A stretch of 62,812 nucleotides of DNA from IMG/VR virus record IMGVR_UViG_3300019458_000022, one strand, 5' to 3'. Below the pieces are notes generated by a model that worked only from the letters and a program-made list of their open reading frames with translations, was not told where the DNA came from and made no database searches. The position numbers were made by a program, and so were the translations under genes. Source of the DNA: a virus. Of the stretch, positions 806 to 47,645 are shown in pieces (the first letter of the stretch is position 1; each line of letters opens with the position of its first letter).

Positions 806-2506
806 TCACGCCCCGATGTTCGTGGCCGCGTTGTCGTCCTGATCCCATTCGGTTCCGCAGGCGGTGCAACGATGCCTGAGGATCTTGCGGTTCCAGGTCT
901 GGATCGACCCGCAGGCGTGGCACTTTGCCGTCGTATTCTTCGCATTGACGAGCACGGTCTCGGCCATGCCCTCCTTGATGCACTTGAGGAGTTCCGAGAG
1001 GCATGCATCGCGGACGTGCTCCTTCAAGGCACCGTCCTTCGGCTCCTGCTCGGCCTCCGGCGTCTCGTGGAAGTCCCGGAGATCCAGCTTCTCGACCCTC
1101 GCCGTGTGGTAGGCCCGCCGCCTCTCCGCGATGAAGTTCCTGAAGATGTCGGTGCGGCGGTTCTGAAGCTGGTCGCGCAGGTTCGACTGGTACTCGCAGA
1201 GGTGCCGATCGTGCTTGCGCCACTCCTCCAGGGTCTTGAAGATCTCGTCGTCTCCCTGGAAGCGGGCATCGCGCCAGCGGATGACGAGCCGGGCAAGCCT
1301 GGCCTGCGACTTCCACTGGGCGACCGTCCTGGCGGCTTCACGGAGCCAGTCGGGCAGGTTCTTCTGGTTCTTGAACCACTCGACGAAATCGGCGCGCATC
1401 TTGTTCATGTTCTTGTCGCGGATCGACTGGATGTCCTCGGTCTTCCTCATCCCCGACATCCAGTGGCCGGGCAGCGCGAGTTCGCCTTCGTTGCCGTCGC
1501 TCCCTTTCCAGTAGGCGACCCGCATCGAGCCGTCCTTGCGCCGCGTCTTGCCGTCGTCCCCGGTCACGCGCCAGCCCACGTCGATCGAGACCGTTCCCTC
1601 GGCCGCGCAGTCCGGCTTGTTCCATCCGATGGCCCTGGAAAGCACGAACTGGACCCGCCATTCGCAGTGCGTGCCGATCCGGCGGCGGACCAGATGCACC
1701 CACTTGATCTTGGCGTCCCAGGGAATGGGACGGTGAAGGACGATGGGAATGACGGCGAAGACGGGCGCGCCGCTTTCGTCGCTTCCGACGCGGAAACGGA
1801 CGCGCGTCCGGAGCCTCGCGGCCTTGCTCAGGCGCGGACCGATGAAGTCCGGGGGTTCCTCGATGGGCAGCGGGTCGATCTGGATTCGCCTATCCCGTCC
1901 GGCAAACGCCTCCTCCGGCGAAATCCCGTGCTGCACCTGGACGGCCAGGTGTCCGCCGCCGTCGCGACGCGAGAATTGGGGCGGCGGACCGCTCCTGTCC
2001 ACCGTGGTCCCGATGAAAAGGCGCGTTCCCCAGTAGAGCCCCATCCGGCCGATCGTGGCGTAGAGCCGCTTCTTCTTTTCCTCCGCGCGGCCGTCGATCT
2101 CGGCGCCGATAGGCTCCCAGGCTTCCGACGCGAATAGCTCCGTTCGGATGGCCTTCCGTTCCTTGCAGAGCCGCTTCAGTTCCGTAGCCGAGGCGCCCGC
2201 GCGCTTGGCGGCCTCGGCCGGGATTACCTTTGTTCGGGCGAACGCGCTCACCTGGTTGATCGTGTTCCTGGCGTGGTTCAGTTCGGCGTTCGTCGCCGTG
2301 ATCGCCGCCTCGATCCTCACAAGGTCGGGCGACATCCTGCAAAGCGCGGCGTCGGTCTTTCTCCGCCGGTCGCGTTCGACCGCCACGAGCGCATTCCGGT
2401 ACCGGCGCGCGAGTTCCATCTGCTGGTCCACGAACTCCGCCGCTTCGACCGGGGGTTTTGCGCCGTAGGAGTAGAATCGGGAGGGCAGGCTGTCATTCCC
2501 AAACAT
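806..2506 (-). CDS. cas12m: Type V-M (V-U1/C2c4) Cas12m-like effector, about 566 aa
   Basis: Adjacent to the array. Cas12m-type motifs GLYWG, RRDGGGHLAVQVQ, LHRPIP, AQWKS. RuvC-I SIDVGWR, RuvC-II VEKLDL, CxxC-CxxC zinc finger, RuvC-III DQDDNAATNI. SD AAGAGGAG upstream of ATG 2506. Confidence 0.9.
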   Translation of the reverse strand: MFGNDSLPSRFYSYGAKPPVEAAEFVDQQMELARRYRNALVAVERDRRRKTDAALCRMSPDLVRIEAAITATNAELNHARNTINQVSAFARTKVIPAEAAKRAGASATELKRLCKERKAIRTELFASEAWEPIGAEIDGRAEEKKKRLYATIGRMGLYWGTRLFIGTTVDRSGPPPQFSRRDGGGHLAVQVQHGISPEEAFAGRDRRIQIDPLPIEEPPDFIGPRLSKAARLRTRVRFRVGSDESGAPVFAVIPIVLHRPIPWDAKIKWVHLVRRRIGTHCEWRVQFVLSRAIGWNKPDCAAEGTVSIDVGWRVTGDDGKTRRKDGSMRVAYWKGSDGNEGELALPGHWMSGMRKTEDIQSIRDKNMNKMRADFVEWFKNQKNLPDWLREAARTVAQWKSQARLARLVIRWRDARFQGDDEIFKTLEEWRKHDRHLCEYQSNLRDQLQNRRTDIFRNFIAERRRAYHTARVEKLDLRDFHETPEAEQEPKDGALKEHVRDACLSELLKCIKEGMAETVLVNAKNTTAKCHACGSIQTWNRKILRHRCTACGTEWDQDDNAATNIGA

Positions 2507-2545
2507 ACGTTCTCCTCTTCTTAGGCAAGACCCATGCCTGTGCAA

Positions 2546-7204: not shown

Positions 7205-8398
7205 CTACCGGCGCTTCGGAGGACGCGCTGGCTGGCCCGCGGGCGCGCTGGACGTGGGGGGACCTTCTCCCAATAGATCGGCCAGGGGATCGTCGTCCCT
7301 GGGCGCTTCCTGGCCATCCCCGAGGATCAGGCGCTCCAGGGCCTCCATGCCCTCGGTCGAGATCCGCTTCATCGACCCCAGGTAGATGTCGGTCGTGTTG
7401 AGGTTCTTGTGGCCGAGCTTCTCCTTGATCTTCTTCACGTCCATTCCCATCTGGTGGAGGGTCCGCGCGGCTAGATGCCGGATGCCGTGGACGTGGAGGT
7501 GGACCTCGGTCTCGTCTATCCCGGCCTGGCGCCCGCGGCTTTTGACCATCTGGTCGAGCGCCGAGGGCGCGAGCGGCCCTTCGCCGTCCCGGCGGTGGAG
7601 CCCCCGGGCCTGGACCAGGTACTTCCCGGCGTCGGTCGTGGCGACGAAAACCGGGCTCTCCCGGGTCATCTTCCGACCGCTCGCCTTCCAGTAGTCGAGG
7701 ATCGCCTCCCAGACGATCGACGTAAGCTCGACCTTCTGCTCGTCCCCGCCCTTCATGATGAATCGGATGTAGGGCTTCCCGCCGTCCCGGCTGAAGTCGG
7801 CGATCCGGAGGTTCATGATCTCCTTGCGGCGCCTGGTCGTGTAGAGGATGAGCCAGAGGATCGCGTAATCGCGCTTTCCGAGGAGGGTCTTACGGTCGCA
7901 GGTGTCGAGAATCTTTTTGAATTCGTCCTTGTTCATCTCCCGGAGGTCGCCCGACTTCTGGTAGGGCTGGATGGTCGGGAGGCGCTCCTTCACGGTCCGG
8001 AACGGGTTCGATTGGATGAGCGACTGGCCCTTGGTGTCCTTGGGCCGGGTCATAAAATCGAAGAAGGAACTGCATGCGGCAATGTAGTTGATGATCGTCC
8101 GGGGCTTCTTCCCCTCAGATTCGAGGTACGCGATGTAGGAGGTTATGTGGGTGGTTGTCACGTCCTGGGGCGACAGCACCGGCGGCTGGAGCCGCGCCAG
8201 GAAGTCGAAGAAGTCCCGGAGCGCGACCTCGTAGGTCGCCCAGGTCTGGGGTTTGCAGGTGGACTTGAAGTCGTAAAGGGCCATGGCCTCCGGCCGCGGG
8301 AAGAAGATCTCGGTGCTTCCCCGTGGGTCCCGGAGGACGAGCGTCAGTTTCTCCGGCTTGACCAGAGCCGGGAGGCTCGACGCCTTGTGAGGCTTCAC
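7205..8398 (-). CDS. XerC/D-like tyrosine recombinase
   Basis: SAM-like N-terminus; RDYAIL.LILYTTRR, HGIRH, LGHKNLNTTDIY catalytic motifs. Confidence 0.93.
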   Translation of the reverse strand: MKPHKASSLPALVKPEKLTLVLRDPRGSTEIFFPRPEAMALYDFKSTCKPQTWATYEVALRDFFDFLARLQPPVLSPQDVTTTHITSYIAYLESEGKKPRTIINYIAACSSFFDFMTRPKDTKGQSLIQSNPFRTVKERLPTIQPYQKSGDLREMNKDEFKKILDTCDRKTLLGKRDYAILWLILYTTRRRKEIMNLRIADFSRDGGKPYIRFIMKGGDEQKVELTSIVWEAILDYWKASGRKMTRESPVFVATTDAGKYLVQARGLHRRDGEGPLAPSALDQMVKSRGRQAGIDETEVHLHVHGIRHLAARTLHQMGMDVKKIKEKLGHKNLNTTDIYLGSMKRISTEGMEALERLILGDGQEAPRDDDPLADLLGEGPPTSSAPAGQPARPPKRR

Positions 8399-12280: not shown

Positions 12281-12936
12281 CGCTCGAAGCACGACACTTC
12301 GTCGCCGGAGGCCCCGCGGTGGTGGACCGGATTAGCGCCGCCGGGGTAATCCTCCCCTCCGCCGAACGGATGTACAGGTCCGACGCCATCCAGGCATGTG
12401 ACGTCTGGTGGTACAACAATGTGATGCTGGACTTACCATTTTATGCCGGAAAAAGGACTATCAAAGACCGATGGCGTTCGGCGCTTCTTGATATTGTCTG
12501 GGAACGCATTGACGAGCTACCGGAGGAGCCTGCTGGAAAACGCCTGCCGACTATGATTGGCTGTCTCGATATTATGGCGGGAGACCACGAGAATGTCTTT
12601 CTGGCGGTTGATGCCTGGGTGAGTTATCCACGAAACGGCTTCGTTTTCGACGCCTTCGAACTCGTTGCAAAAGGCGCGGGCATCCGGCTTGACGATTTCC
12701 GGGATGGTTACCGGCTCGCACTCACGAAAACGGGCCGGGCAAAGAGCGTCGGCGCGATGAGGGATGCTATTCTGCGTGCGATTGGAACGGTTAAGCGCCA
12801 CGAACTTCACGGACGCGAAGCGAAGGAGGCGCTTTTGAGATTCCGCCACGGGGAATATACCGAGGTCGTCTGGCCTGGACCGCTTCCCGTAGAATGGGCG
12901 ATGGCCGTTTGGAAGCAAGATTCACAGGTGGCCTAA
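12277..12936 (+). CDS. hypothetical protein, possibly ART-fold
   Basis: RH...GVILP...VFL...GFVFD...EVVWPGPLP. Confidence 0.55.
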   Translation: MTLEARHFVAGGPAVVDRISAAGVILPSAERMYRSDAIQACDVWWYNNVMLDLPFYAGKRTIKDRWRSALLDIVWERIDELPEEPAGKRLPTMIGCLDIMAGDHENVFLAVDAWVSYPRNGFVFDAFELVAKGAGIRLDDFRDGYRLALTKTGRAKSVGAMRDAILRAIGTVKRHELHGREAKEALLRFRHGEYTEVVWPGPLPVEWAMAVWKQDSQVA

Positions 12937-12997
12937 CGTAGACGACACTCCCCGGCTTGATACGCAGAATCCGCTGCGTGTGACATCTTAAATTCGG

Positions 12998-13075
12998 TGG
13001 CGGGCAGGGAAGGACTTGAACCTCCGACCTCCACCGGCCTAAGCCAGCGGCGCTCTTTCTCTGAGCTACCTGCCC
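12998..13075 (-). ncRNA. tRNA-like RNA 2: the anticodon arm is an 8-bp stem with a UUAG tetraloop
   Basis: GGGCAGG/CCTGCCC acceptor, GCTC/GAGC D stem, GGAGG-TTCAAGT-CCTTC T arm, encoded G-CCA; CCGCTGGC-TTAG-GCCGGTGG replaces the 7-nt anticodon loop. Confidence 0.8.
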
Positions 13076-13079
13076 ACAA

Positions 13080-13152
13080 TGGTGGGGAGGCCACGGCGCG
13101 ACCCGTGGACTTCCGGACCGAAGCCCGGCGTGCCGCTTGACACCACCTCCCC
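13080..13152 (-). ncRNA. tRNA-like RNA 1: the anticodon arm is a 6-bp stem with a UUCG tetraloop
   Basis: GGGGAGG/CCTCCCC acceptor, A-CCA end, D-like stem GTGTC/GGCAC, CCGGGC-TTCG-GTCCGG, T-like stem CCACGG/CCGTGG with a non-canonical loop. Confidence 0.7.
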
Positions 13153-13158
13153 GCGCGA

Positions 13159-13509
13159 TCAGTTCGAGACCTCCTCGTGTTCCGGACTCCAAAGAGGGAA
13201 CTTCTTGAACGCCTTGCGCGCGTCGCCCGAGATGGGCTCCGTCGCGAACGCGGTCGCCTGGTCTCCGAAGTCGTCCTCGACCCAGAGGTAGTGGCGGATT
13301 CCGCGGAGCGAGCAGTTGGCGGCGGCTACGCGGAGCGCGGCCTCGTCAGGGACGGTGCAGAACACGATCGAGGAAATGTCGCGTGGGTTTCCGAATCTGA
13401 TGCCGCACTCGTGGGCGGCGTGGAGAGCCTGAACGGCCTGGTGGACGGCGGGAATGTCCGAACGGACGACGACGTAAATGTAGCCCTTGGCTTCCTACGT
13501 GTCCTTCAC
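13159..13509 (-). CDS. Pth2-like peptidyl-tRNA hydrolase with an in-frame UAG (13495-13497)
   Basis: SD AAGGAGGT, then GTG AAG GAC ACG TAG GAA...; YVVVRSDI....QAVQALHAA...EDD..DQATAFATEP pattern of the PTH2 family. Confidence 0.8.
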
Positions 13510-13577
13510 GGCAACCTCCTTCTTCTGGTTCGAGAAGACTTCGTTCGCTTTCATCAGCAGCAGTTTCAACGATAGAA

Positions 13578-13606
13578 AGACTATCCTGCAATCCCCCATG
13601 TGTCAA
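13578..13606 (-). promoter_or_regulatory. sigma70 promoter of the pth2 / tRNA-like operon
   Basis: TTGACA-17 bp-TAGTCT. Confidence 0.75.
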
Positions 13607-13615
13607 GAAAAAAAT

Positions 13616-13689
13616 TGGTGCTCCCGCCGAGACTTGAACTCGGCTGCGGGCTTTTAGAGAGCCCTGGCCATCCGCTGGCCCACGGGAGC
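13616..13689 (-). tRNA. amber suppressor tRNA, anticodon CUA
   Basis: GCTCCCG/CGGGAGC acceptor, GGCC/GGCC D stem, GGGCT-CTCTAAA-AGCCC anticodon arm, CCGAG-TTCAAGT-CTCGG T arm, A-CCA. Confidence 0.92.
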
Positions 13690-13707
13690 GGGATCGTCCA
13701 CTCACCG

Positions 13708-13736
13708 ATTCTAACCCACGAACCCCACATTTGTAA
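13708..13736 (-). promoter_or_regulatory. promoter of the suppressor tRNA (-35 partly supplied by the IS right end)
   Basis: TTACAA-17 bp-TAGAAT. Confidence 0.6.
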
Positions 13737-14990
13737 CGATCCCCAGCCCTAAAGGGCGGGGCTTTTGACTGAGCTATGAGGACGACCGAAGAAGTCCAGA
13801 AGCTCGCCAATACGGGTGGCGTTACGATCACCGCGTATCTCTCGCGGTTCCACCCCGCCCGCGGCGACGTTCACGGAGGCGTTCGCATCCGCGTCCATCC
13901 TCCCGCAGGTTGCGCAAAGAAACTTCGCCCCGTCCCGTCGTCCGATCTTGGAGCATTTGTGGCAGGTCACGCTTGTGCGGAACGGGTTGACGTGCTCCGT
14001 CACGAGCCCGACGCGGAGTGCCTTGTATTCGGAGAACGTCTGGCACTCCCGAAAGGCCCACCCAGCAACCATCCGGTTGAGATGGGGGTTGCGCGTCCGG
14101 GTGCGCTTCCGGATTCCTTTCAAATCCTCGAACCGGATGACGCCGAACCCACCCCTGAGAGCTTCCTCCACGATGGACTTCGAGACGTTGTGGTTCACCC
14201 ATGCCTTCCAGCGCCGCTCCCTGCCGCTCAAGCGTCTCAGGGCGCGCTTGGCGCCCCGAGTGCCTTTGCTCTGAAGCGACGCCCGGACACGGGCAAACTC
14301 CGCTTTCTTGGCCTGAACTGCTACACCAGATATTGTCTTGCCGCTCGACATCGTGGCGATGTTGTGGATGCCGAGGTCAATCCCGAGAGGCGGGCCTCCG
14401 CGCTTCGGAGGTTCTGTTTCTTCAATAGCGATGTGGATGTCCCAGTTCTTGCCGTTCCGAACCACACGAGCACAGGTAGGTTGTTTCCCGACAAGTTGCT
14501 CCCTTTGGAACCCGCCGATCTTGAGCGGGATGTGGAGCCTTCCTTTGAGCGTAGTCACGGAGACTGTCTCGTCCGTCTCTCGGTAGTCGAAGATTCGAGC
14601 ATCGTAGTCGATGCTCGTTGGACGAAACTCGGAAACGCGCTTTCCGCGCTTGGCGGCGATCTTGACGGCGTAGGCGACCCGAGCGATGGCACGGATGGCG
14701 AGGTTGGCGGAGAGGCCGAAGTCCTTCCGTATCTCCCGGTAGCAAGCGCGCTGGAGCTTGACCTTGTTGGAGGTCTTGAGCCTACGGGAATGGCCGAGGA
14801 CGGCGTTGCAGGCATTGGCGAACGCCTTGGTTGTTTCGAAGAGCGCCTGTTCCATAATTGGCGTGGGAGCCATCCTGCATTTGACGGTACGTTGCATTAA
14901 GAAGAAGCTATCACATATGGTTTTTGATGTCAAAGAGGGCGGCGCTTCCTCCCCACGGCTGAAGCCGGGGGCTTCCGCGCCGTCCAATTC
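13733..14990 (-). mobile_element. IS200/IS605-family (IS1341-like, TnpB-only) element
   Basis: Left-end hairpin GAAG-CCCCCGGCTTCAGCCGTGGGG after target TCAC; right-end hairpin AAAG-CCCCGCCCTTTAGGGCTGGGG ending in TTAC; no tnpA. Confidence 0.85.
13749..14897 (-). CDS. tnpB: RNA-guided endonuclease TnpB
   Basis: LGIDLG, FEDLKGIR, TSVTCHKC...CATC, DADANASVNV; own promoter TTGACA at about 14927. Confidence 0.93.
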   Translation of the reverse strand: MQRTVKCRMAPTPIMEQALFETTKAFANACNAVLGHSRRLKTSNKVKLQRACYREIRKDFGLSANLAIRAIARVAYAVKIAAKRGKRVSEFRPTSIDYDARIFDYRETDETVSVTTLKGRLHIPLKIGGFQREQLVGKQPTCARVVRNGKNWDIHIAIEETEPPKRGGPPLGIDLGIHNIATMSSGKTISGVAVQAKKAEFARVRASLQSKGTRGAKRALRRLSGRERRWKAWVNHNVSKSIVEEALRGGFGVIRFEDLKGIRKRTRTRNPHLNRMVAGWAFRECQTFSEYKALRVGLVTEHVNPFRTSVTCHKCSKIGRRDGAKFLCATCGRMDADANASVNVAAGGVEPREIRGDRNATRIGELLDFFGRPHSSVKSPAL

Positions 14991-15032
14991 GTGAACATGG
15001 AAAGGGTTCCCCGAGGGCGGTAGAATAACCGG

Positions 15033-15488
15033 ATGGGACGTCGCATCACGGAGGCTGAGTTCCAAAGCGTCCTCGCGGAGGTCCGCGACAGGATTCTTGA
15101 TCGGATGGCCGAGACGGGCTTCTGGAACGAAGGCGTCCTGCGTCGCGACGCCACCACCTGGGACATCAACAACGGTTGCTGCGAGGAATTCGCCGACGAA
15201 GTGATCCTAGAACTCGCCCAAAGGTACGGCCAGGGCTTCCCCGGCGAACATTACGAGACTTTCGCCTACCGCGCAACCGGCGCCGAAGCCATCGAACTTC
15301 CCGATCCCGACGACCCCGACGATTTGCTAGGTCATGCCGTTGTCATTTGGAGAGGGCGGTACTACGACGCGGAGTGCATCACCGGCGTAAAGGACTGGAA
15401 GACGCTTCCACTTGTCAAGAATCGTGATCTTAGCCGCCAGGAGATGCTCCTCAAGCGCCGAGGAGACGCGCGTTGGAGTAGGTGCTGA
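15033..15488 (+). CDS. papain-like fold protein (leaderless)
   Basis: INNGCCEEFA...GHAVV..RGRYYDAE; ATG 6 nt after TAGAAT. Confidence 0.65.
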   Translation: MGRRITEAEFQSVLAEVRDRILDRMAETGFWNEGVLRRDATTWDINNGCCEEFADEVILELAQRYGQGFPGEHYETFAYRATGAEAIELPDPDDPDDLLGHAVVIWRGRYYDAECITGVKDWKTLPLVKNRDLSRQEMLLKRRGDARWSRC

Positions 15489-45679: not shown

Positions 45680-46177
45680 TCAGCCAGCAAAATAGAAGCC
45701 CAGACGAAGCGTATCCGGGCTCGTCCGAAGCTGCTCGATGTACTTCAGGATCTCGGTGAGCCGACGCTTGGAGTCGTCGGGTTTTCCGGGCTCGAAGGTC
45801 GGGACCAGGATGTAGCGGTGCCCGAAACCGTCCTGTTCAGCCTGGAGCTTGAATGCGGGCTCGTTGTCGATCAGGACGTCGCCGTTCACGCGGTATATGT
45901 TCTTGAAAAAGCGGGGATAACCGCGCGCCCGGTCGATCGCCGGAAGCGTGTCGTCGGTGTAGATCTCCCGGAAGAAGGACATGAGGGCCGGAAAGTGCCC
46001 ACGTACCGTCCGCACCCAGGCCGCGTTCGCGGCCGTCCATAGGACCAGGCGATGGCCCCGGCGCGAGAGTTTTTCCAGGAACTCATGGATGCCCGGCCGC
46101 GGACGGACGTAGACCTCCCCATTCGGGGCCAGGCGTTCCCCGATCAGCGTCCCGTCCAGGTCGCAGACGATCCTCAT
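45680..46177 (-). CDS. HAD-superfamily (FCP1/NIF-like) phosphatase
   Basis: DLDGTLI...RPG...LWTAA...K...LIDN. Confidence 0.85.
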   Translation of the reverse strand: MRIVCDLDGTLIGERLAPNGEVYVRPRPGIHEFLEKLSRRGHRLVLWTAANAAWVRTVRGHFPALMSFFREIYTDDTLPAIDRARGYPRFFKNIYRVNGDVLIDNEPAFKLQAEQDGFGHRYILVPTFEPGKPDDSKRRLTEILKYIEQLRTSPDTLRLGFYFAG

Positions 46178-47067
46178 TTAGACGGCACCAGCACTTTCGT
46201 GAGGACCCACGCCAGACCGAGCGATCCGGCGACGATGCCCGCGGGGACCGCATAGGGCTTAATGGTTTCCCAGACCTGGGCGACCGCGCCTCCGATCTCC
46301 TCGCCGCGGATGATCGCGAGGTATTTGGCGGTTCCGACCCGGCCCCCGATCCCCGGATACCGCGCGTTGATCCGGGCGGTCGTGTCGGCGACCCGGTGGC
46401 GAGCGAGCGGATGGGACCGCAGGTAGTATTCGATCCCGCTCGGCTCTTTCCCCTTTTCCATCGACTGGAACTTCCCCATGACGCCGACGATGCCGTGCGG
46501 GTCGTACCCGGCGCGGGCCGAAAGATCGACGCCGTCCTCGTCGGCTTCGGATTCGTGGCCGCGGGAGAACCCGTTCACGGCCAGGTTGAAGCCGAGGTCC
46601 GTCGCCTTGGTGAGCGTCTCCTGGTTTTCGGCGCTCAGGCGCTTCCCGACCAGGGCCTTGGCAAGCTCTGCGAGCGCCGTGAATCCGAGCCGTTCCTCGA
46701 TCGACTTGTTGATGTGGCGCTTGTTGACGTGCCCGACCTCGTGGCCGAGGACGCCCGCCAGTTCCGCCTCGTTCTCAAGGACGTCGAGGATCGCCCGCGT
46801 GACGAAGATCTGCCCGTTGCCGAGCGCGAAGGCGTTCACGACCTTGTCGTCGGCGAGGACCGTGAACTTGTACGGGATGTCCTGGCGCTTGGCTTTGACC
46901 GCGACCGCCTTCCCGACCTCGGTCACGTAGTCATTGACCGATTTCCCGGGATAGACGCCGCCGAACTCCTTCACCATCTCCGGGGCTAGTTGGTCGCCGG
47001 TCGTCTTCGCGATCGGATCGGTAAGGAAGGTCGGAAGGATCTGCCCCAGGCCCGCGTTCGTGTACAT
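46174..47067 (-). CDS. M48 family metallopeptidase with a C-terminal TM helix
   Basis: NAFA.G.GQIFV...LGHEVGH...FSR..E.EAD..G...SHP. Confidence 0.9.
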   Translation of the reverse strand: MYTNAGLGQILPTFLTDPIAKTTGDQLAPEMVKEFGGVYPGKSVNDYVTEVGKAVAVKAKRQDIPYKFTVLADDKVVNAFALGNGQIFVTRAILDVLENEAELAGVLGHEVGHVNKRHINKSIEERLGFTALAELAKALVGKRLSAENQETLTKATDLGFNLAVNGFSRGHESEADEDGVDLSARAGYDPHGIVGVMGKFQSMEKGKEPSGIEYYLRSHPLARHRVADTTARINARYPGIGGRVGTAKYLAIIRGEEIGGAVAQVWETIKPYAVPAGIVAGSLGLAWVLTKVLVPSK

Positions 47068-47069
47068 GG

Positions 47070-47645
47070 CTAAACCAGCGCCTTCATCAGGGGGTCGGGC
47101 ACCCGGGCCCGTTCGGTGACGATGTTCCAGTCCACGTTTACGAGCACCGCATCGAGATAGGCGCCTTTGTCGATCCCGTAGTCGCTCATGTAGGAATGCT
47201 CGTAGCAGTCGATGACGAGGAGCGGAACCGCGAGGGCAACGAACCCGTGCGCGTGGCTCGACATCGTGAAATCGAAGAGGCGGCCGGTCGCAAGATCCAT
47301 CGCGCGGATCACCCAGCCGGTCGAGGCAAGCGCAGCCTTGTGGAAGCGGTCCTCCCATCGGACGTACATCTCGTCGTCGCCAACGACGTCAAACGGGTCC
47401 CCGGCGCCTCCGGGCGTCAGGTTCTCGAAGTATAGTTCGTGGAGCCGGACCGCGTTCCGGAGCATCCCTTCCTCGGCCAGAAGTCTCCCGTATTCGAAGG
47501 GATCGCCCGGCGGAGCGTCTTGCAGCCGGTGGTGGAGTTCATCCCAACGGTCCAGGTACCTGAGATAGAGGCCGTAATGGGCCTCCAGGAGCTTCTTGGA
47601 AAGCCCCGGAAGGCTCTCGTACGGCAGTTCCATCGGCTGCCACAT
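47070..47645 (-). CDS. Fe/Mn superoxide dismutase family protein
   Basis: HY.LY...LHELYF...LVIDCYEHSY..DYG...YL....NVDW. Confidence 0.85.
   Translation of the reverse strand: MWQPMELPYESLPGLSKKLLEAHYGLYLRYLDRWDELHHRLQDAPPGDPFEYGRLLAEEGMLRNAVRLHELYFENLTPGGAGDPFDVVGDDEMYVRWEDRFHKAALASTGWVIRAMDLATGRLFDFTMSSHAHGFVALAVPLLVIDCYEHSYMSDYGIDKGAYLDAVLVNVDWNIVTERARVPDPLMKALV

What the first reader, a model, noticed from the sequence alone, without database searches (positions are those of the whole stretch)
12998..13736. Amber-gated peptidyl-tRNA hydrolase operon: suppressor tRNA(CUA), UAG-interrupted pth2 and two anticodon-less tRNA mimics
Seen, in order on the minus strand: promoter; canonical tRNA with anticodon CUA; second promoter; strong SD and GTG-AAG-GAC-ACG-TAG followed in frame by a full Pth2-like domain; two CCA-ended cloverleafs. 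No alternative start codon lies between the UAG and the first conserved strand (YVVVR), so full-length protein needs readthrough. Other genes here use TAG as a normal stop. Established: Pth recycles dropped-off peptidyl-tRNA, and very short ORFs promote drop-off. Inference: a self-contained translational switch or sensor, in which hydrolase output reports competition between suppressor tRNA and RF1, possibly countering host defences that attack tRNAs or translation. I know of no description of this four-part module.
Basis: partly seen in the sequence, partly recalled or inferred. Interest (0 to 1): 0.92.

Follow-up and report, generated by a model that had tools for sequence, protein, structure and literature searches.

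The report
Stop-codon-gated Pth2 gene with suppressor tRNA
A small tRNA-hydrolase-like gene can be translated in full only if a UAG stop at its fifth codon is read through by a UAG-reading tRNA encoded just upstream, and this pairing recurs in about 90 diverged phages, including lab-grown ones whose stop-reading tRNAs had no known target.

Summary
On the minus strand lie a tRNA(CUA), a conserved promoter, a Shine-Dalgarno (SD) site, the leader GTG-AAG-GAC-ACG, an in-frame TAG, a 111-codon Pth2-fold ORF, and two CCA-ended cloverleaf RNAs with tetraloops in place of anticodon loops.

The TAG is not an error. Of 91 distinct related loci, 86 keep a start codon, 1-7 further codons and then an in-frame stop, and 72 of these have no canonical start after the stop.

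- **Covariation:** the stop matches the local suppressor tRNA: TAG with CUA (dozens), TGA with UCA (three), TAA with UUA (one). No non-cognate case was found.
- **Ungated relatives:** none of seven has such a tRNA.
- **Context:** 70 of 72 gates are followed by a purine.
- **Genetic code:** the window is not recoded overall. TAG ends at least 41 coding-like ORFs.
- **Cultured phages with the gate:** Serratia BF, Acinetobacter ME3, Cronobacter GAP32, Salmonella Arash, Ralstonia RsoM2USA and Xanthomonas XacN1. Two of their genome papers (XacN1, RsoM2USA) report the suppressor tRNA without naming this gene as its target.
- **tRNA mimics:** both types are conserved, with compensatory changes, in the window's clade.

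The enzyme's activity and the mimics' role are inferred, not shown. I found no published description. This scan has noted the same module before on other DNA (at least 35 notes).

The parts
13708..13737 (-). Promoter-like site upstream of the suppressor tRNA (GTTACA-N18-TAGAAT). It abuts the end of a TnpB ORF (13749-15065).
   Evidence: the only consensus match in 12800-13900, against 0.1 expected in shuffles. Conservation in relatives was not tested.
13616..13689 (-). Amber-suppressor tRNA with anticodon CUA. It is a canonical cloverleaf with a CUCUAAA loop, discriminator A73 and an encoded CCA.
   Evidence: ARAGORN; Rfam RF00005, 48.8 bits, E 5.9e-9; cloverleaf at minimum free energy, z -4.0. 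Forty-one distinct suppressor tRNAs lie beside homologous genes.
13578..13606 (-). The gene's own promoter, TTGACA-N17-TAGTCT.
   Evidence: Read. The same hexamers and spacing sit between the tRNA and the gene in L001, L003, L018-L020 and L022-L027.
13495..13521 (-). Translation start and gate: SD AAGGAGG (13521-13515), a 5-nt spacer, the leader GTG AAG GAC ACG (13509-13498) and the in-frame TAG (13497-13495), followed by G.
   Evidence: The leader-stop layout is conserved in 86 of 91 distinct loci. The base after the stop is a purine in 70 of 72.
13159..13494 (-). Pth2-fold ORF: 111 codons after the TAG, then TGA at 13161-13159.
   Evidence: AlphaFold2 gives pLDDT 93.9. The Foldseek top hits are Pth2/Bit1 structures (1q7s, 1wn2, 2zv3, 1xty, 3erj) at TM about 0.75 and probability 1.00. 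The family profile hits Pth2 chains in the PDB (E 4.7e-6 to 0.01). 36 of 70 members match PF01981.
13080..13152 (-). tRNA mimic type 1. It has a 7-bp acceptor stem and an ACCA end, a 6-bp stem with a UUCG tetraloop where the anticodon arm would be, and a non-canonical but conserved T loop (GGGUCGCGCC). It starts 6 nt after the gene's stop codon.
   Evidence: 23.8 bits, below the gathering score; cloverleaf at minimum free energy, z -2.5. Homologs lie 6-22 nt after the gene in L018, L019, L022 and L024, and further downstream in L002 and L003, with acceptor and T-stem covariation.
12998..13075 (-). tRNA mimic type 2. It has a canonical acceptor, D stem and T arm and a GCCA end, but an 8-bp stem with a UUAG loop replaces the anticodon arm, and the D loop (AGAGAAA) lacks the GG.
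   Evidence: ARAGORN: tRNA-???, 2-nt 'anticodon'; 47.2 bits. Seventeen related copies occur in 11 loci. In their alignment together with the window's type 1 copy (18 sequences), 14 of 24 pairs show compensatory changes.

Best explanation
This is a programmed stop-codon gate.

The mRNA of a small Pth2-fold protein starts with a good SD site and a four-codon leader that runs straight into UAG. Release factor 1 (RF1) ends translation there unless the tRNA(CUA) encoded about 120 nt upstream, with its own promoter, decodes the UAG. The ribosome then continues in frame through the whole enzyme.

The UAG lies in a non-conserved N-terminal leader, so any inserted residue is tolerated. The codon therefore acts purely as a switch. 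The enzyme is made only when, and roughly in proportion as, a processed and charged suppressor tRNA outcompetes RF1. In circuit terms this is an AND gate, or a coherent feed-forward loop.

The conservation of the gate and its match to the tRNA are shown by comparative evidence. The rest is inferred:
- The protein probably acts on ester-linked tRNA 3' ends (peptidyl- or N-acyl-aminoacyl-tRNA). It would recycle tRNAs trapped as a side effect of suppression or translation stress.
- In this clade the two anticodon-less, CCA-ended tRNA mimics are probably co-transcribed with the gene. They may serve as processing or stability elements, or as acceptor-end ligands or decoys for the enzyme or for host factors.
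For: 1. Conservation. 86 of 91 distinct loci (33-80% protein identity, 30-63% GC) keep a start codon, 1-7 further codons and then an in-frame stop. In 72 of them there is no ATG, GTG or TTG between the stop and strand 1.
2. Stop type. The stop is TAG in 81 of 85 gates against 24% of ORF ends in the same DNA (binomial 1e-45). In low-GC loci it is 31 of 33 against 12%.
3. Covariation with the anticodon.
   - TGA gates: L076 and L108 have tRNA(UCA) 40-130 nt upstream, and the only tRNA on L009's contig is UCA.
   - TAA gate: L099 lies in a 527-kb phage that encodes tRNA(UUA).
   - No non-cognate pairing was found.
4. Linkage. A cognate suppressor lies in the fetched DNA in 58 of 93 gated loci and in 0 of 7 ungated ones (Fisher 0.002). 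In the main survey all 51 such tRNAs are on the gene's strand, mostly 17-120 nt upstream or about 0.7-0.8 kb downstream of the stop.
5. Context. The base after the stop is a purine in 70 of 72 gates, and the tRNA loops are mostly CUCUAAA. From established work on amber suppression (Bossi, Miller, Yarus; recalled, not checked here), both favour suppression.
6. Genetic code. The window is not recoded overall, and this is its only leader-stop gene.
7. Fold and family..
8. Annotation. Database gene calls for this family are often 63-72-aa C-terminal stubs, and the gene is unannotated in several GenBank phage records. That is expected if gene callers stop at the gate.
9. Literature. The XacN1 authors found two tRNA(CUA) genes but no target gene (PMC5852040). 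XacN1's homolog opens ATG-AAG-TAG.
Against: - Nothing here is experimental. Expression, charging and the inserted residue of the tRNA are unknown, and no readthrough product has been seen.
- TAG is the commonest stop of the window's own coding-like ORFs (41 against 38 TGA). A strong suppressor would therefore extend many proteins, and TAG-ended ORFs show no enrichment of back-up stops.
- Ten loci also have an in-frame canonical start after the stop. In Mycobacterium Bixzunavirus phages a well-placed GTG follows ATG-TAG directly. Readthrough is therefore not always obligatory.
- About a third of gated loci with at least 2.5 kb on each side show no suppressor tRNA in the fetched DNA (12 of 37).
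- The window protein scores below Pfam's PTH2 cut-off.
- In the profile alignments to solved Pth2 chains, a lysine of their GK-type motif falls opposite the Gln pair of the family consensus. Hydrolase chemistry may therefore differ.
- The loci are related to one another, so the P values overstate independence.
Confidence: 0.72

Rival explanations
1. The short leader is an ordinary upstream mini-ORF that simply terminates at TAG. The enzyme is then made by re-initiation or by a non-canonical start downstream (in the window, ATT at 13479-13477). The suppressor tRNA would be irrelevant to this gene.
For: - The window's ATT aligns with the Met of some database homologs that begin 'MY..VR'.
- Ten loci have an in-frame ATG, GTG or TTG after the stop.
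- Bixzunavirus phages read ATG-TAG-GTG, with the SD spaced for the GTG.
Against: - Re-initiation does not depend on which stop ends the mini-ORF. Yet the stop is TAG in 81 of 85 gates (background 24%; 12% in low-GC loci), and it switches to TGA or TAA exactly where the local suppressor is UCA or UUA.
- 72 loci have no canonical start at all between the stop and strand 1.
- The ATT is not kept in the closest relatives L018 and L019, which read EAAKRHVYVVVR there.
- No well-spaced SD precedes the ATT.
Confidence: 0.12
2. The element uses an alternative genetic code (TAG read as a sense codon, 'code 15'). On this reading the TAG is one of many recoded codons and not a dedicated gate.
For: - Recoded phages with suppressor tRNAs are well documented (Borges et al. 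preprint).
- Some relatives gain ORF coverage when TAG is read as sense, for example L034 (0.68 to 0.88) and L069.
- One database protein (P0046) has Q where the gate falls in relatives, which may mean TAG was read as Q (my inference).
Against: - In the window TAG ends 41-53 coding-like ORFs. The same frame continues after TAG no more often than after TGA or TAA (7/53, 4/47, 3/12), and each such case has ATG or GTG within a few codons.
- A scan for leader-stop genes finds only this one with a distant downstream start.
- Low-GC relatives L007, L082, L092 and L096 gain almost nothing from reading TAG as sense.
- The cultured carriers are annotated under the standard code, and XacN1's 18 amber stops gave no readthrough homology.
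Confidence: 0.05
3. The gene is a decaying pseudogene or the TAG is an assembly error, and the two odd cloverleaves are decaying tRNA pseudogenes without function.
For: - The window protein scores below Pfam's threshold.
- Mimic 1 scores below Rfam's tRNA threshold.
- A TnpB element sits next to the module.
Against: - The stop sits at the same place, in an otherwise open and conserved frame, in about 90 independent assemblies, including complete genomes of cultured phages.
- The model is confident (pLDDT 93.9).
- Both mimic types keep a full acceptor stem, an encoded CCA and a stable tetraloop. They show compensatory changes: 14 of 24 pairs in the 18-sequence alignment dominated by type 2, and 8 of 15 pairs for type 1.
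Confidence: 0.03

Closest known systems
Stop-codon-recoded phages with phage-encoded suppressor tRNAs (TAG read as Gln or TGA as Trp; crAss-like, Lak, Jade and Agate phages; Borges et al., bioRxiv 10.1101/2021.08.26.457843)
   Same: A phage-encoded suppressor tRNA decodes in-frame stops in phage genes. Those authors proposed that this times gene expression, and described a 'code change module'.
   Different: - Here the genome otherwise uses TAG as a stop.
- The gate is one codon, at position 2-8 of one particular small gene next to the tRNA.
- That gene encodes a Pth2-fold protein, not a lysis or structural protein.
- The paper does not mention a hydrolase.
prfB (RF2) autoregulation through an early in-frame UGA
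   Same: An in-frame stop within the first codons of a translation-factor gene makes its output depend on how well that stop is decoded.
   Different: - prfB escapes the stop by a +1 frameshift, and the product itself reads the stop, giving closed negative feedback.
- Here escape is same-frame readthrough by a dedicated tRNA.
- Whether the product feeds back on suppression is unknown.
Pth2 / PTRH2 (Bit1) peptidyl-tRNA hydrolases (PF01981), including the PTH2 genes noted in jumbo phages (Iyer et al. 2021, PMC7824862)
   Same: - The alpha/beta fold is the same (TM about 0.75 to 1q7s, 1wn2, 2zv3 and 1xty).
- The Q..HA motif and the acidic D-x-G motif are shared.
- The genes sit in tRNA-rich and tmRNA-rich phage neighbourhoods.
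   Different: - This is a divergent subfamily. The window protein scores below Pfam's cut-off.
- A lysine of the Pth2 GK-type motif falls opposite Gln in this family.
- One loop is about four residues shorter.
- The published survey mentions neither the in-frame stop nor the suppressor tRNA.
Synthetic amber-suppressor feed-forward 'leak dampener' circuits (PMC7969014)
   Same: The logic is the same. A target gene carries an amber codon and is expressed only when a co-regulated suppressor tRNA is present.
   Different: Those circuits are engineered. This one is natural and widely conserved, and its purpose is unknown.
Non-decoding tRNA-like RNAs (bacterial Y RNA YrlA, mascRNA, viral 3' tRNA-like structures)
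   Same: They share a tRNA-shaped fold with an acceptor-like stem and T-arm but no decoding function. Weak sub-threshold Rfam hits to YrlA and mascRNA lie in or near the module.
   Different: The RNAs here are tRNA-sized cloverleaves with an encoded CCA and a GNRA, UUCG or UUAG tetraloop capping a 6-8 bp stem. They do not match any Rfam family other than tRNA.

Membership tests
Pth2 peptidyl-tRNA hydrolase (PF01981) | Sequence match to the Pfam model above its gathering score | tested here: inconclusive
   - The window protein scores 14.5 bits against a cut-off of 23.
- 36 of 70 family members match at E <= 0.01.
- The XacN1 fused homolog scores 25.3 bits, above the cut-off.
- The family profile hits PDB Pth2 chains at E 4.7e-6 to 0.01.
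Pth2 peptidyl-tRNA hydrolase (PF01981) | Pth2 alpha/beta fold | tested here: met
   The model has pLDDT 93.9. The top ten Foldseek hits are all Pth2/Bit1 structures, at probability 1.00 and TM 0.69-0.75.
Pth2 peptidyl-tRNA hydrolase (PF01981) | Active-site Lys (GK motif) and Asp (DAG motif). The residue roles are recalled from the Sulfolobus Pth2 study; I could not retrieve that paper. | tested here: inconclusive
   - In the profile alignments, a lysine of the Pth2 'gKK'/'kgK' stretch falls opposite the Gln pair ('qq') of the family consensus.
- Gln at window-domain position 19 is nearly invariant in the family.
- The acidic E-x-D-x-G motif is nearly invariant (E73, D75).
- Q22, H25 and A26 are invariant.
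Pth2 peptidyl-tRNA hydrolase (PF01981) | Hydrolysis of peptidyl-tRNA or N-acyl-aminoacyl-tRNA | not testable with these tools
   This needs an enzyme assay or complementation of a pth(ts) strain.
Programmed stop-codon readthrough by a dedicated suppressor tRNA | The in-frame stop is conserved among homologs, with the frame open and conserved on the 3' side | tested here: met
   86 of 91 distinct loci, 7 of 9 loci from bacterial genome assemblies and the cultured phages.
Programmed stop-codon readthrough by a dedicated suppressor tRNA | A cognate suppressor tRNA is encoded by the same element, and its anticodon matches the stop | tested here: met
   - TAG with CUA in dozens of loci.
- TGA with UCA in L009, L076 and L108.
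- TAA with UUA in L099.
- No non-cognate case, and 0 of 7 ungated loci carry a suppressor.
Programmed stop-codon readthrough by a dedicated suppressor tRNA | A readthrough protein is actually made | not testable with these tools
   No proteomic or reporter data were available.
Genome-wide stop-codon reassignment (genetic code 15) | In-frame TAG in many genes, and TAG not used as a terminator | tested here: not met
   TAG ends 41-53 coding-like ORFs in the window, and no other gene needs TAG readthrough.
prfB-type autoregulation | The gene product itself acts on decoding of its own in-frame stop (closed feedback) | not tested
   No evidence either way. The gate is same-frame readthrough, not a frameshift.
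Canonical decoding tRNA (asked of the two downstream cloverleaves) | A 7-nt anticodon loop on a 5-bp stem | tested here: not met
   - Type 1 has a 6-bp stem with a UUCG loop, and type 2 an 8-bp stem with a UUAG loop.
- Relatives have GAAA or GCAA loops, or longer stems.
Canonical decoding tRNA (asked of the two downstream cloverleaves) | A 7-bp acceptor stem with discriminator and CCA, and a T arm with the GTTCRA loop | tested here: inconclusive
   - Acceptor stem and CCA are present in both.
- Type 2 has a canonical T loop, whereas type 1 has a conserved non-canonical loop (GGGUCGCGCC).
- The type 2 D loop, AGAGAAA, lacks the GG.

The most novel reading that the evidence does not exclude
The module is a self-contained translation-state circuit. 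The suppressor tRNA exists chiefly to gate this one gene. The Pth2-like enzyme and the anticodon-less, CCA-ended tRNA mimics then work together on tRNA 3' ends. The mimics could be dedicated substrates, or decoys that protect the tRNA pool from host toxins that modify or cleave acceptor ends. The enzyme would be switched on only once phage tRNAs are functional. If so, the suppressor tRNAs with no known target in standard-code jumbo phages, and in some Chloroflexota genome assemblies, would be regulators rather than code-changers.
Probability: 0.2. Interest if true: 0.9.

Novelty: new variant of a known kind. Interest (0 to 1): 0.8.

Why it matters
- **A target for unexplained tRNAs.** Standard-code jumbo phages carry suppressor tRNAs whose genome papers named no specific target. 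[quoted passage not shown] This module supplies a concrete, conserved target.
- **A natural genetic circuit.** It shows a natural, ancient version of the amber-suppressor AND gate that synthetic biologists build.
- **An annotation error.** The gene is missing or cut to a stub in GenBank records of the Serratia BF, Yersinia fHe-Yen9-04, Erwinia pEa_SNUABM, RsoM2USA, GAP32 and Arash phages, and in most metagenome gene calls.
- **Testability.** Several carriers grow on ordinary laboratory hosts (Salmonella, Serratia, Acinetobacter, Cronobacter).
- **A new RNA family.** The conserved anticodon-less tRNA mimics are an undescribed small-RNA family tied to a tRNA-end enzyme.

Tried and rejected
- **Scan of bacterial and archaeal genomes (GTDB) with A1:** it found nothing. 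A second scan with A3 found nine loci, so 'phage only' is rejected.
- **Upstream DNA of the 'MY..VR' homologs P0001 and P0002:** the sample files were too large, so I could not see whether they also carry the leader-TAG.
- **ORF-coverage test for recoding:** it is uninformative in high-GC DNA. I replaced it with GC3-based frame tests.
- **Back-up stops:** TAG-ended ORFs have no closer back-up stops than TGA-ended ones (Mann-Whitney P 0.85).
- **Prediction for Agrobacterium phage Atu_ph07:** its paper reports a UCA suppressor, so I expected a TGA-gated homolog. tblastn with two queries did not hit that phage, so the prediction remains untested.
- **Type of element:** PHROGs and Pfam on 20 neighbouring ORFs gave only an integrase, an M48 peptidase, a DNA-repair-like protein and a second TnpB/Cas12-like protein. 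Whether this is a jumbo phage or another large mobile element stays open. Its closest relatives are IMG/VR viral contigs.
- **Pth2 catalytic residues:** a literature search did not return the primary paper.
- **Amino-acid identity of the tRNA(CUA):** I could not assign it. The suppressors beside these genes have several unrelated acceptor stems.
Full report
**1. What is in the window**

Reading the minus strand from 13737 down to 12998 gives the following, in order:
- A promoter-like GTTACA-N18-TAGAAT site.
- A canonical tRNA with anticodon CUA at 13616-13689 (ARAGORN; Rfam tRNA 48.8 bits; cloverleaf at minimum free energy, z -4.0).
- A TTGACA-N17-TAGTCT promoter at 13606-13578.
- A 5' leader with the SD site AAGGAGG, then GTG AAG GAC ACG TAG.
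- 111 in-frame codons ending at TGA 13161-13159.
- Six bases later, a 73-nt cloverleaf ending ACCA. Seven bases after that, a 78-nt cloverleaf ending GCCA.

In both cloverleaves the anticodon arm is a long stem capped by four bases: 6 bp with UUCG in the first, and 8 bp with UUAG in the second. The only in-frame canonical start after the TAG is 43 codons in.

**2. The protein**

On its own the window protein matches Pfam PTH2 only weakly (14.5 bits against a cut-off of 23). The family is large, with 904 representatives at E <= 0.001 among 1.8 billion proteins. Three results place it in the Pth2 fold:
- A 70-member profile hits solved Pth2 chains (24bt, 2zv3, 1rzw, 1wn2, 1q7s).
- Half of the members hit PF01981.
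- An AlphaFold2 model (pLDDT 93.9) has only Pth2/Bit1 structures as its top matches, at TM about 0.75.

In the profile alignments, the Q..HA motif and an acidic E-x-D-x-G motif are kept. A lysine of the Pth2 GK-type motif falls opposite the Gln pair of the family consensus. It is a divergent Pth2-fold protein, and its activity is inferred.

**3. The TAG is programmed**

I collected relatives from viral contigs, metagenomes, GenBank phages and bacterial genome assemblies. I read the frame upstream of each.

*Layout.* Of 91 distinct loci in the main survey:
- 72 have a start codon (67 of them with an SD site), 1-7 further codons, an in-frame stop, and then 7-19 codons with no ATG, GTG or TTG before the conserved strand Y-V-x-V-R-x-D.
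- 10 more have the same leader-stop plus a later start codon.
- 3 lack a clear leader.
- 5-6 have a normal start.

*Leaders.* They are usually 2 or 4 codons long (for example M-T-stop or M-x-D-T-stop). The last sense codon is ACN in 35 of 72.

*Stop type.* The stop is TAG in 81 of 85 gates, against 24% of long-ORF ends in the same DNA. In low-GC loci it is 31 of 33 against 12%. The loci are related, so these P values are generous. The set does, however, span 33-80% identity and 30-63% GC.

**4. The stop matches the tRNA**

- ARAGORN finds a cognate suppressor tRNA in the fetched DNA of 51 of 86 gated loci (25 of 37 with at least 2.5 kb on each side). All are on the gene's strand. They cluster 17-120 nt upstream or about 0.7-0.8 kb downstream of the stop.
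- The three TGA gates have tRNA(UCA). L076 and L108 carry it just upstream, and for L009 it is the only tRNA on the contig.
- The TAA gate (L099) lies in a 527-kb phage that encodes tRNA(UUA).
- No non-cognate pairing was seen.
- None of the five normal-start loci has a suppressor. In bacterial assemblies, 7 of 7 gated loci have tRNA(CUA) and 0 of 2 ungated ones do.
- Pooled, the association gives Fisher 0.002, or 0.0004 for well-flanked loci.

This covariation is the main argument against a plain upstream ORF with re-initiation. Re-initiation would not depend on which stop is used.

**5. Signs of tuning for suppression**

- The base after the gate is a purine in 70 of 72 loci.
- The suppressor anticodon loops are CUCUAAA in 26 of 41 and UUCUAAA in 7.
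- Classical amber-suppression work, recalled and not re-checked here, associates both features with efficient suppression.
- In contrast, ordinary TAG stops in the window are followed by C in 19 of 41 cases. This is suggestive only.

**6. The window is not recoded**

- Using GC3 and GC1-GC2 as a coding signal, TAG ends 41-53 coding-like ORFs.
- The same frame continues after TAG no more often than after TGA or TAA (7/53, 4/47, 3/12). All seven TAG cases have ATG or GTG within a few codons, so they are ordinary gene junctions.
- A scan for leader-stop genes finds only this one with a distant downstream start.
- I see only 62.8 kb of a contig of about 175 kb.

**7. Cultured phages and the literature**

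The same gate is present in:
- Serratia phage BF (M-T-H-TAG), where the gene is unannotated and a tRNA(CUA) lies 3.3 kb away.
- Acinetobacter phage ME3 (M-T-TAG), with an annotated 'tRNA-OTHER, anticodon CTA' about 420 nt upstream of the gate.
- Cronobacter phage GAP32, Ralstonia phage RsoM2USA and a 595-kb uncultured phage.
- Salmonella phage Arash, where the gene is annotated only as a 50-aa stub.
- Xanthomonas and Stenotrophomonas jumbo phages XacN1, Xoo-sp13 and RAS14. There the gene is fused to a weak HD-like N-terminal domain, and the gate sits at the fused N-terminus.

What the papers say:
- The XacN1 paper reports two tRNA(CUA) genes and states that in-silico readthrough of 18 amber stops found no target (PMC5852040).
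- The RsoM2USA paper notes its CUA suppressor without naming a target (PMC8504454).
- A comparative survey records PTH2 in jumbo phages but mentions neither the stop nor the tRNA (PMC7824862).
- The main recoding paper describes a 'code change module' of tRNA, synthetase and release factor, with no hydrolase.
- Six full-text searches found no description of the gate.

Mycobacterium Bixzunavirus phages are a borderline case. They read ATG-TAG-GTG, with the SD spaced for the GTG, and a tRNA(CUA) lies 250 nt downstream.

**8. The tRNA mimics**

*Type 2.* Its acceptor stem reads GGGCAGG and it has a canonical T arm. It recurs in one or two copies downstream of the gene in L003/L026, L018/L019, L020-L022, L024/L027 and L030/L032. 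An independent-looking copy lies beside the tRNA(CUA) in L100. The loop is GAAA, GCAA or UUAG, or the stem is longer. In an 18-sequence alignment that also includes the window's type 1 copy, 14 of 24 pairs show compensatory changes.

*Type 1.* Its acceptor stem reads GGGGAGG and its T loop is the conserved odd sequence GGGUCGCGCC. It starts 6-22 nt after the gene's stop in the window, L018, L019, L022 and L024, and it also occurs in L002 and L003.

The mimics are therefore real, conserved small RNAs, and no terminator-like site separates them from the gene. They are restricted to the window's high-GC clade, so they are an accessory of the module and not a defining part.

Their function is unknown. 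My two working ideas are RNase P/Z processing and mRNA-end elements, or acceptor-end ligands or decoys. Neither was testable here.

**9. Mechanism and its limits**

*Shown by comparison:*
- The gate is conserved.
- It is matched to a linked suppressor tRNA.
- It sits in a non-conserved leader, where any residue fits.

*Inferred:*
- The enzyme is made only when a charged suppressor outcompetes the release factor.
- It hydrolyses ester-linked tRNA ends.
- This helps during suppression or translation stress. A tmRNA gene sits next to the tRNA(CUA) in L011/L078.

*Main unease:*
- TAG is the commonest stop in this element. Suppression must therefore be weak, timed or context-limited, or else costly.

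**10. Relation to earlier notes of this scan**

After I had reached the above reading, a look-up showed that the scan has noted this module on other DNA at least 35 times. It had also noted the tRNA mimics of this window separately. Those notes agree with my reading. One adds that the module occurs in bacterial genomes. I confirmed this independently for Chloroflexota, Gemmataceae and Alcaligenaceae assemblies, including contigs of 1.1 and 1.75 Mb.

**Verdict**

This is a real, conserved and apparently unpublished regulatory module. It is a new variant of suppressor-tRNA-dependent recoding, and the biochemical role of its enzyme and tRNA mimics is still open.

Noticed in passing
L011, L033, L043, L045, L056, L059, L064, L067, L068, L071, L073 (between the gene's end and the downstream tRNA-CUA): In the sub-clade where the suppressor tRNA lies about 0.7-0.8 kb downstream of the gate, a conserved small ORF (about 90-140 aa) fills the gap. 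It has a shared '...ITxLLN/HRLY...G/NKxY/FxxxH' region. It may be a further module component of unknown function.
   Followed up: partly
L141 (Xanthomonas phage XacN1 ORF364), L173 (Xoo-sp13), L175 (Stenotrophomonas phage RAS14): The Pth2-like domain is fused behind an N-terminal domain of about 180 aa with a weak HD-domain match (E 0.008 in RAS14). The leader-TAG gate sits at the start of the fusion (M-K-TAG or M-K-K-TAG).
   Followed up: partly
L178 (Mycobacterium phage IkeLoa, Bixzunavirus), 568-576 and 1199-1272: The annotated 'peptidyl tRNA hydrolase' starts at a GTG that directly follows ATG-TAG, and a tRNA(CUA) lies 250 nt downstream. This may be a minimal one-codon leader or a relic of the gate.
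   Followed up: partly
L181, L183-L188 (Chloroflexota, Gemmataceae and Alcaligenaceae genome assemblies; contigs up to 1.75 Mb): The gated gene and a tRNA(CUA) also occur in bacterial assemblies, on very long contigs. Either prophages, or the cells themselves, carry an amber suppressor.
   Followed up: partly
L011 4925-5300 (also L078); L012 475-850: tmRNA genes lie next to the module. In L011 the tmRNA follows the tRNA-CUA directly.
   Followed up: no
window, ordinary TAG stops: TAG-ended coding-like ORFs are followed by C in 19 of 41 cases, against 9 of 38 for TGA. Classical work considers C a poor context for amber suppression, so this may be an adaptation to living with a suppressor.
   Followed up: partly
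window 13749-15065 (-) and 806-2545 (-): A TnpB/Cas12f-like ORF (OrfB_IS605 plus a TNB domain) ends 12 nt upstream of the tRNA's promoter-like site. A second protein, 579 aa with the same TNB domain, lies at the left end of the window.
   Followed up: no
window 7205-8398 (-), 46174-47358 (-): An integrase (phrog_1, E 2e-37) and an M48 peptidase lie in the window. Nearly all other long ORFs tested have no Pfam or PHROG match, so the type of element (jumbo phage or other large mobile element) is unresolved.
   Followed up: partly
L034 (619-kb contig), L069, L013/L080: ORF coverage rises markedly when TAG is read as sense (for example 0.68 to 0.88). Some relatives may be truly TAG-recoded while keeping the same gate.
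   Followed up: no
GenBank records KY630187 (286092-286403), LT960551, MT939486-8, MW879342-4, MG752970, OQ632216: The gated gene is unannotated, or annotated only as a C-terminal stub, in several complete genomes of cultured phages.
   Followed up: yes
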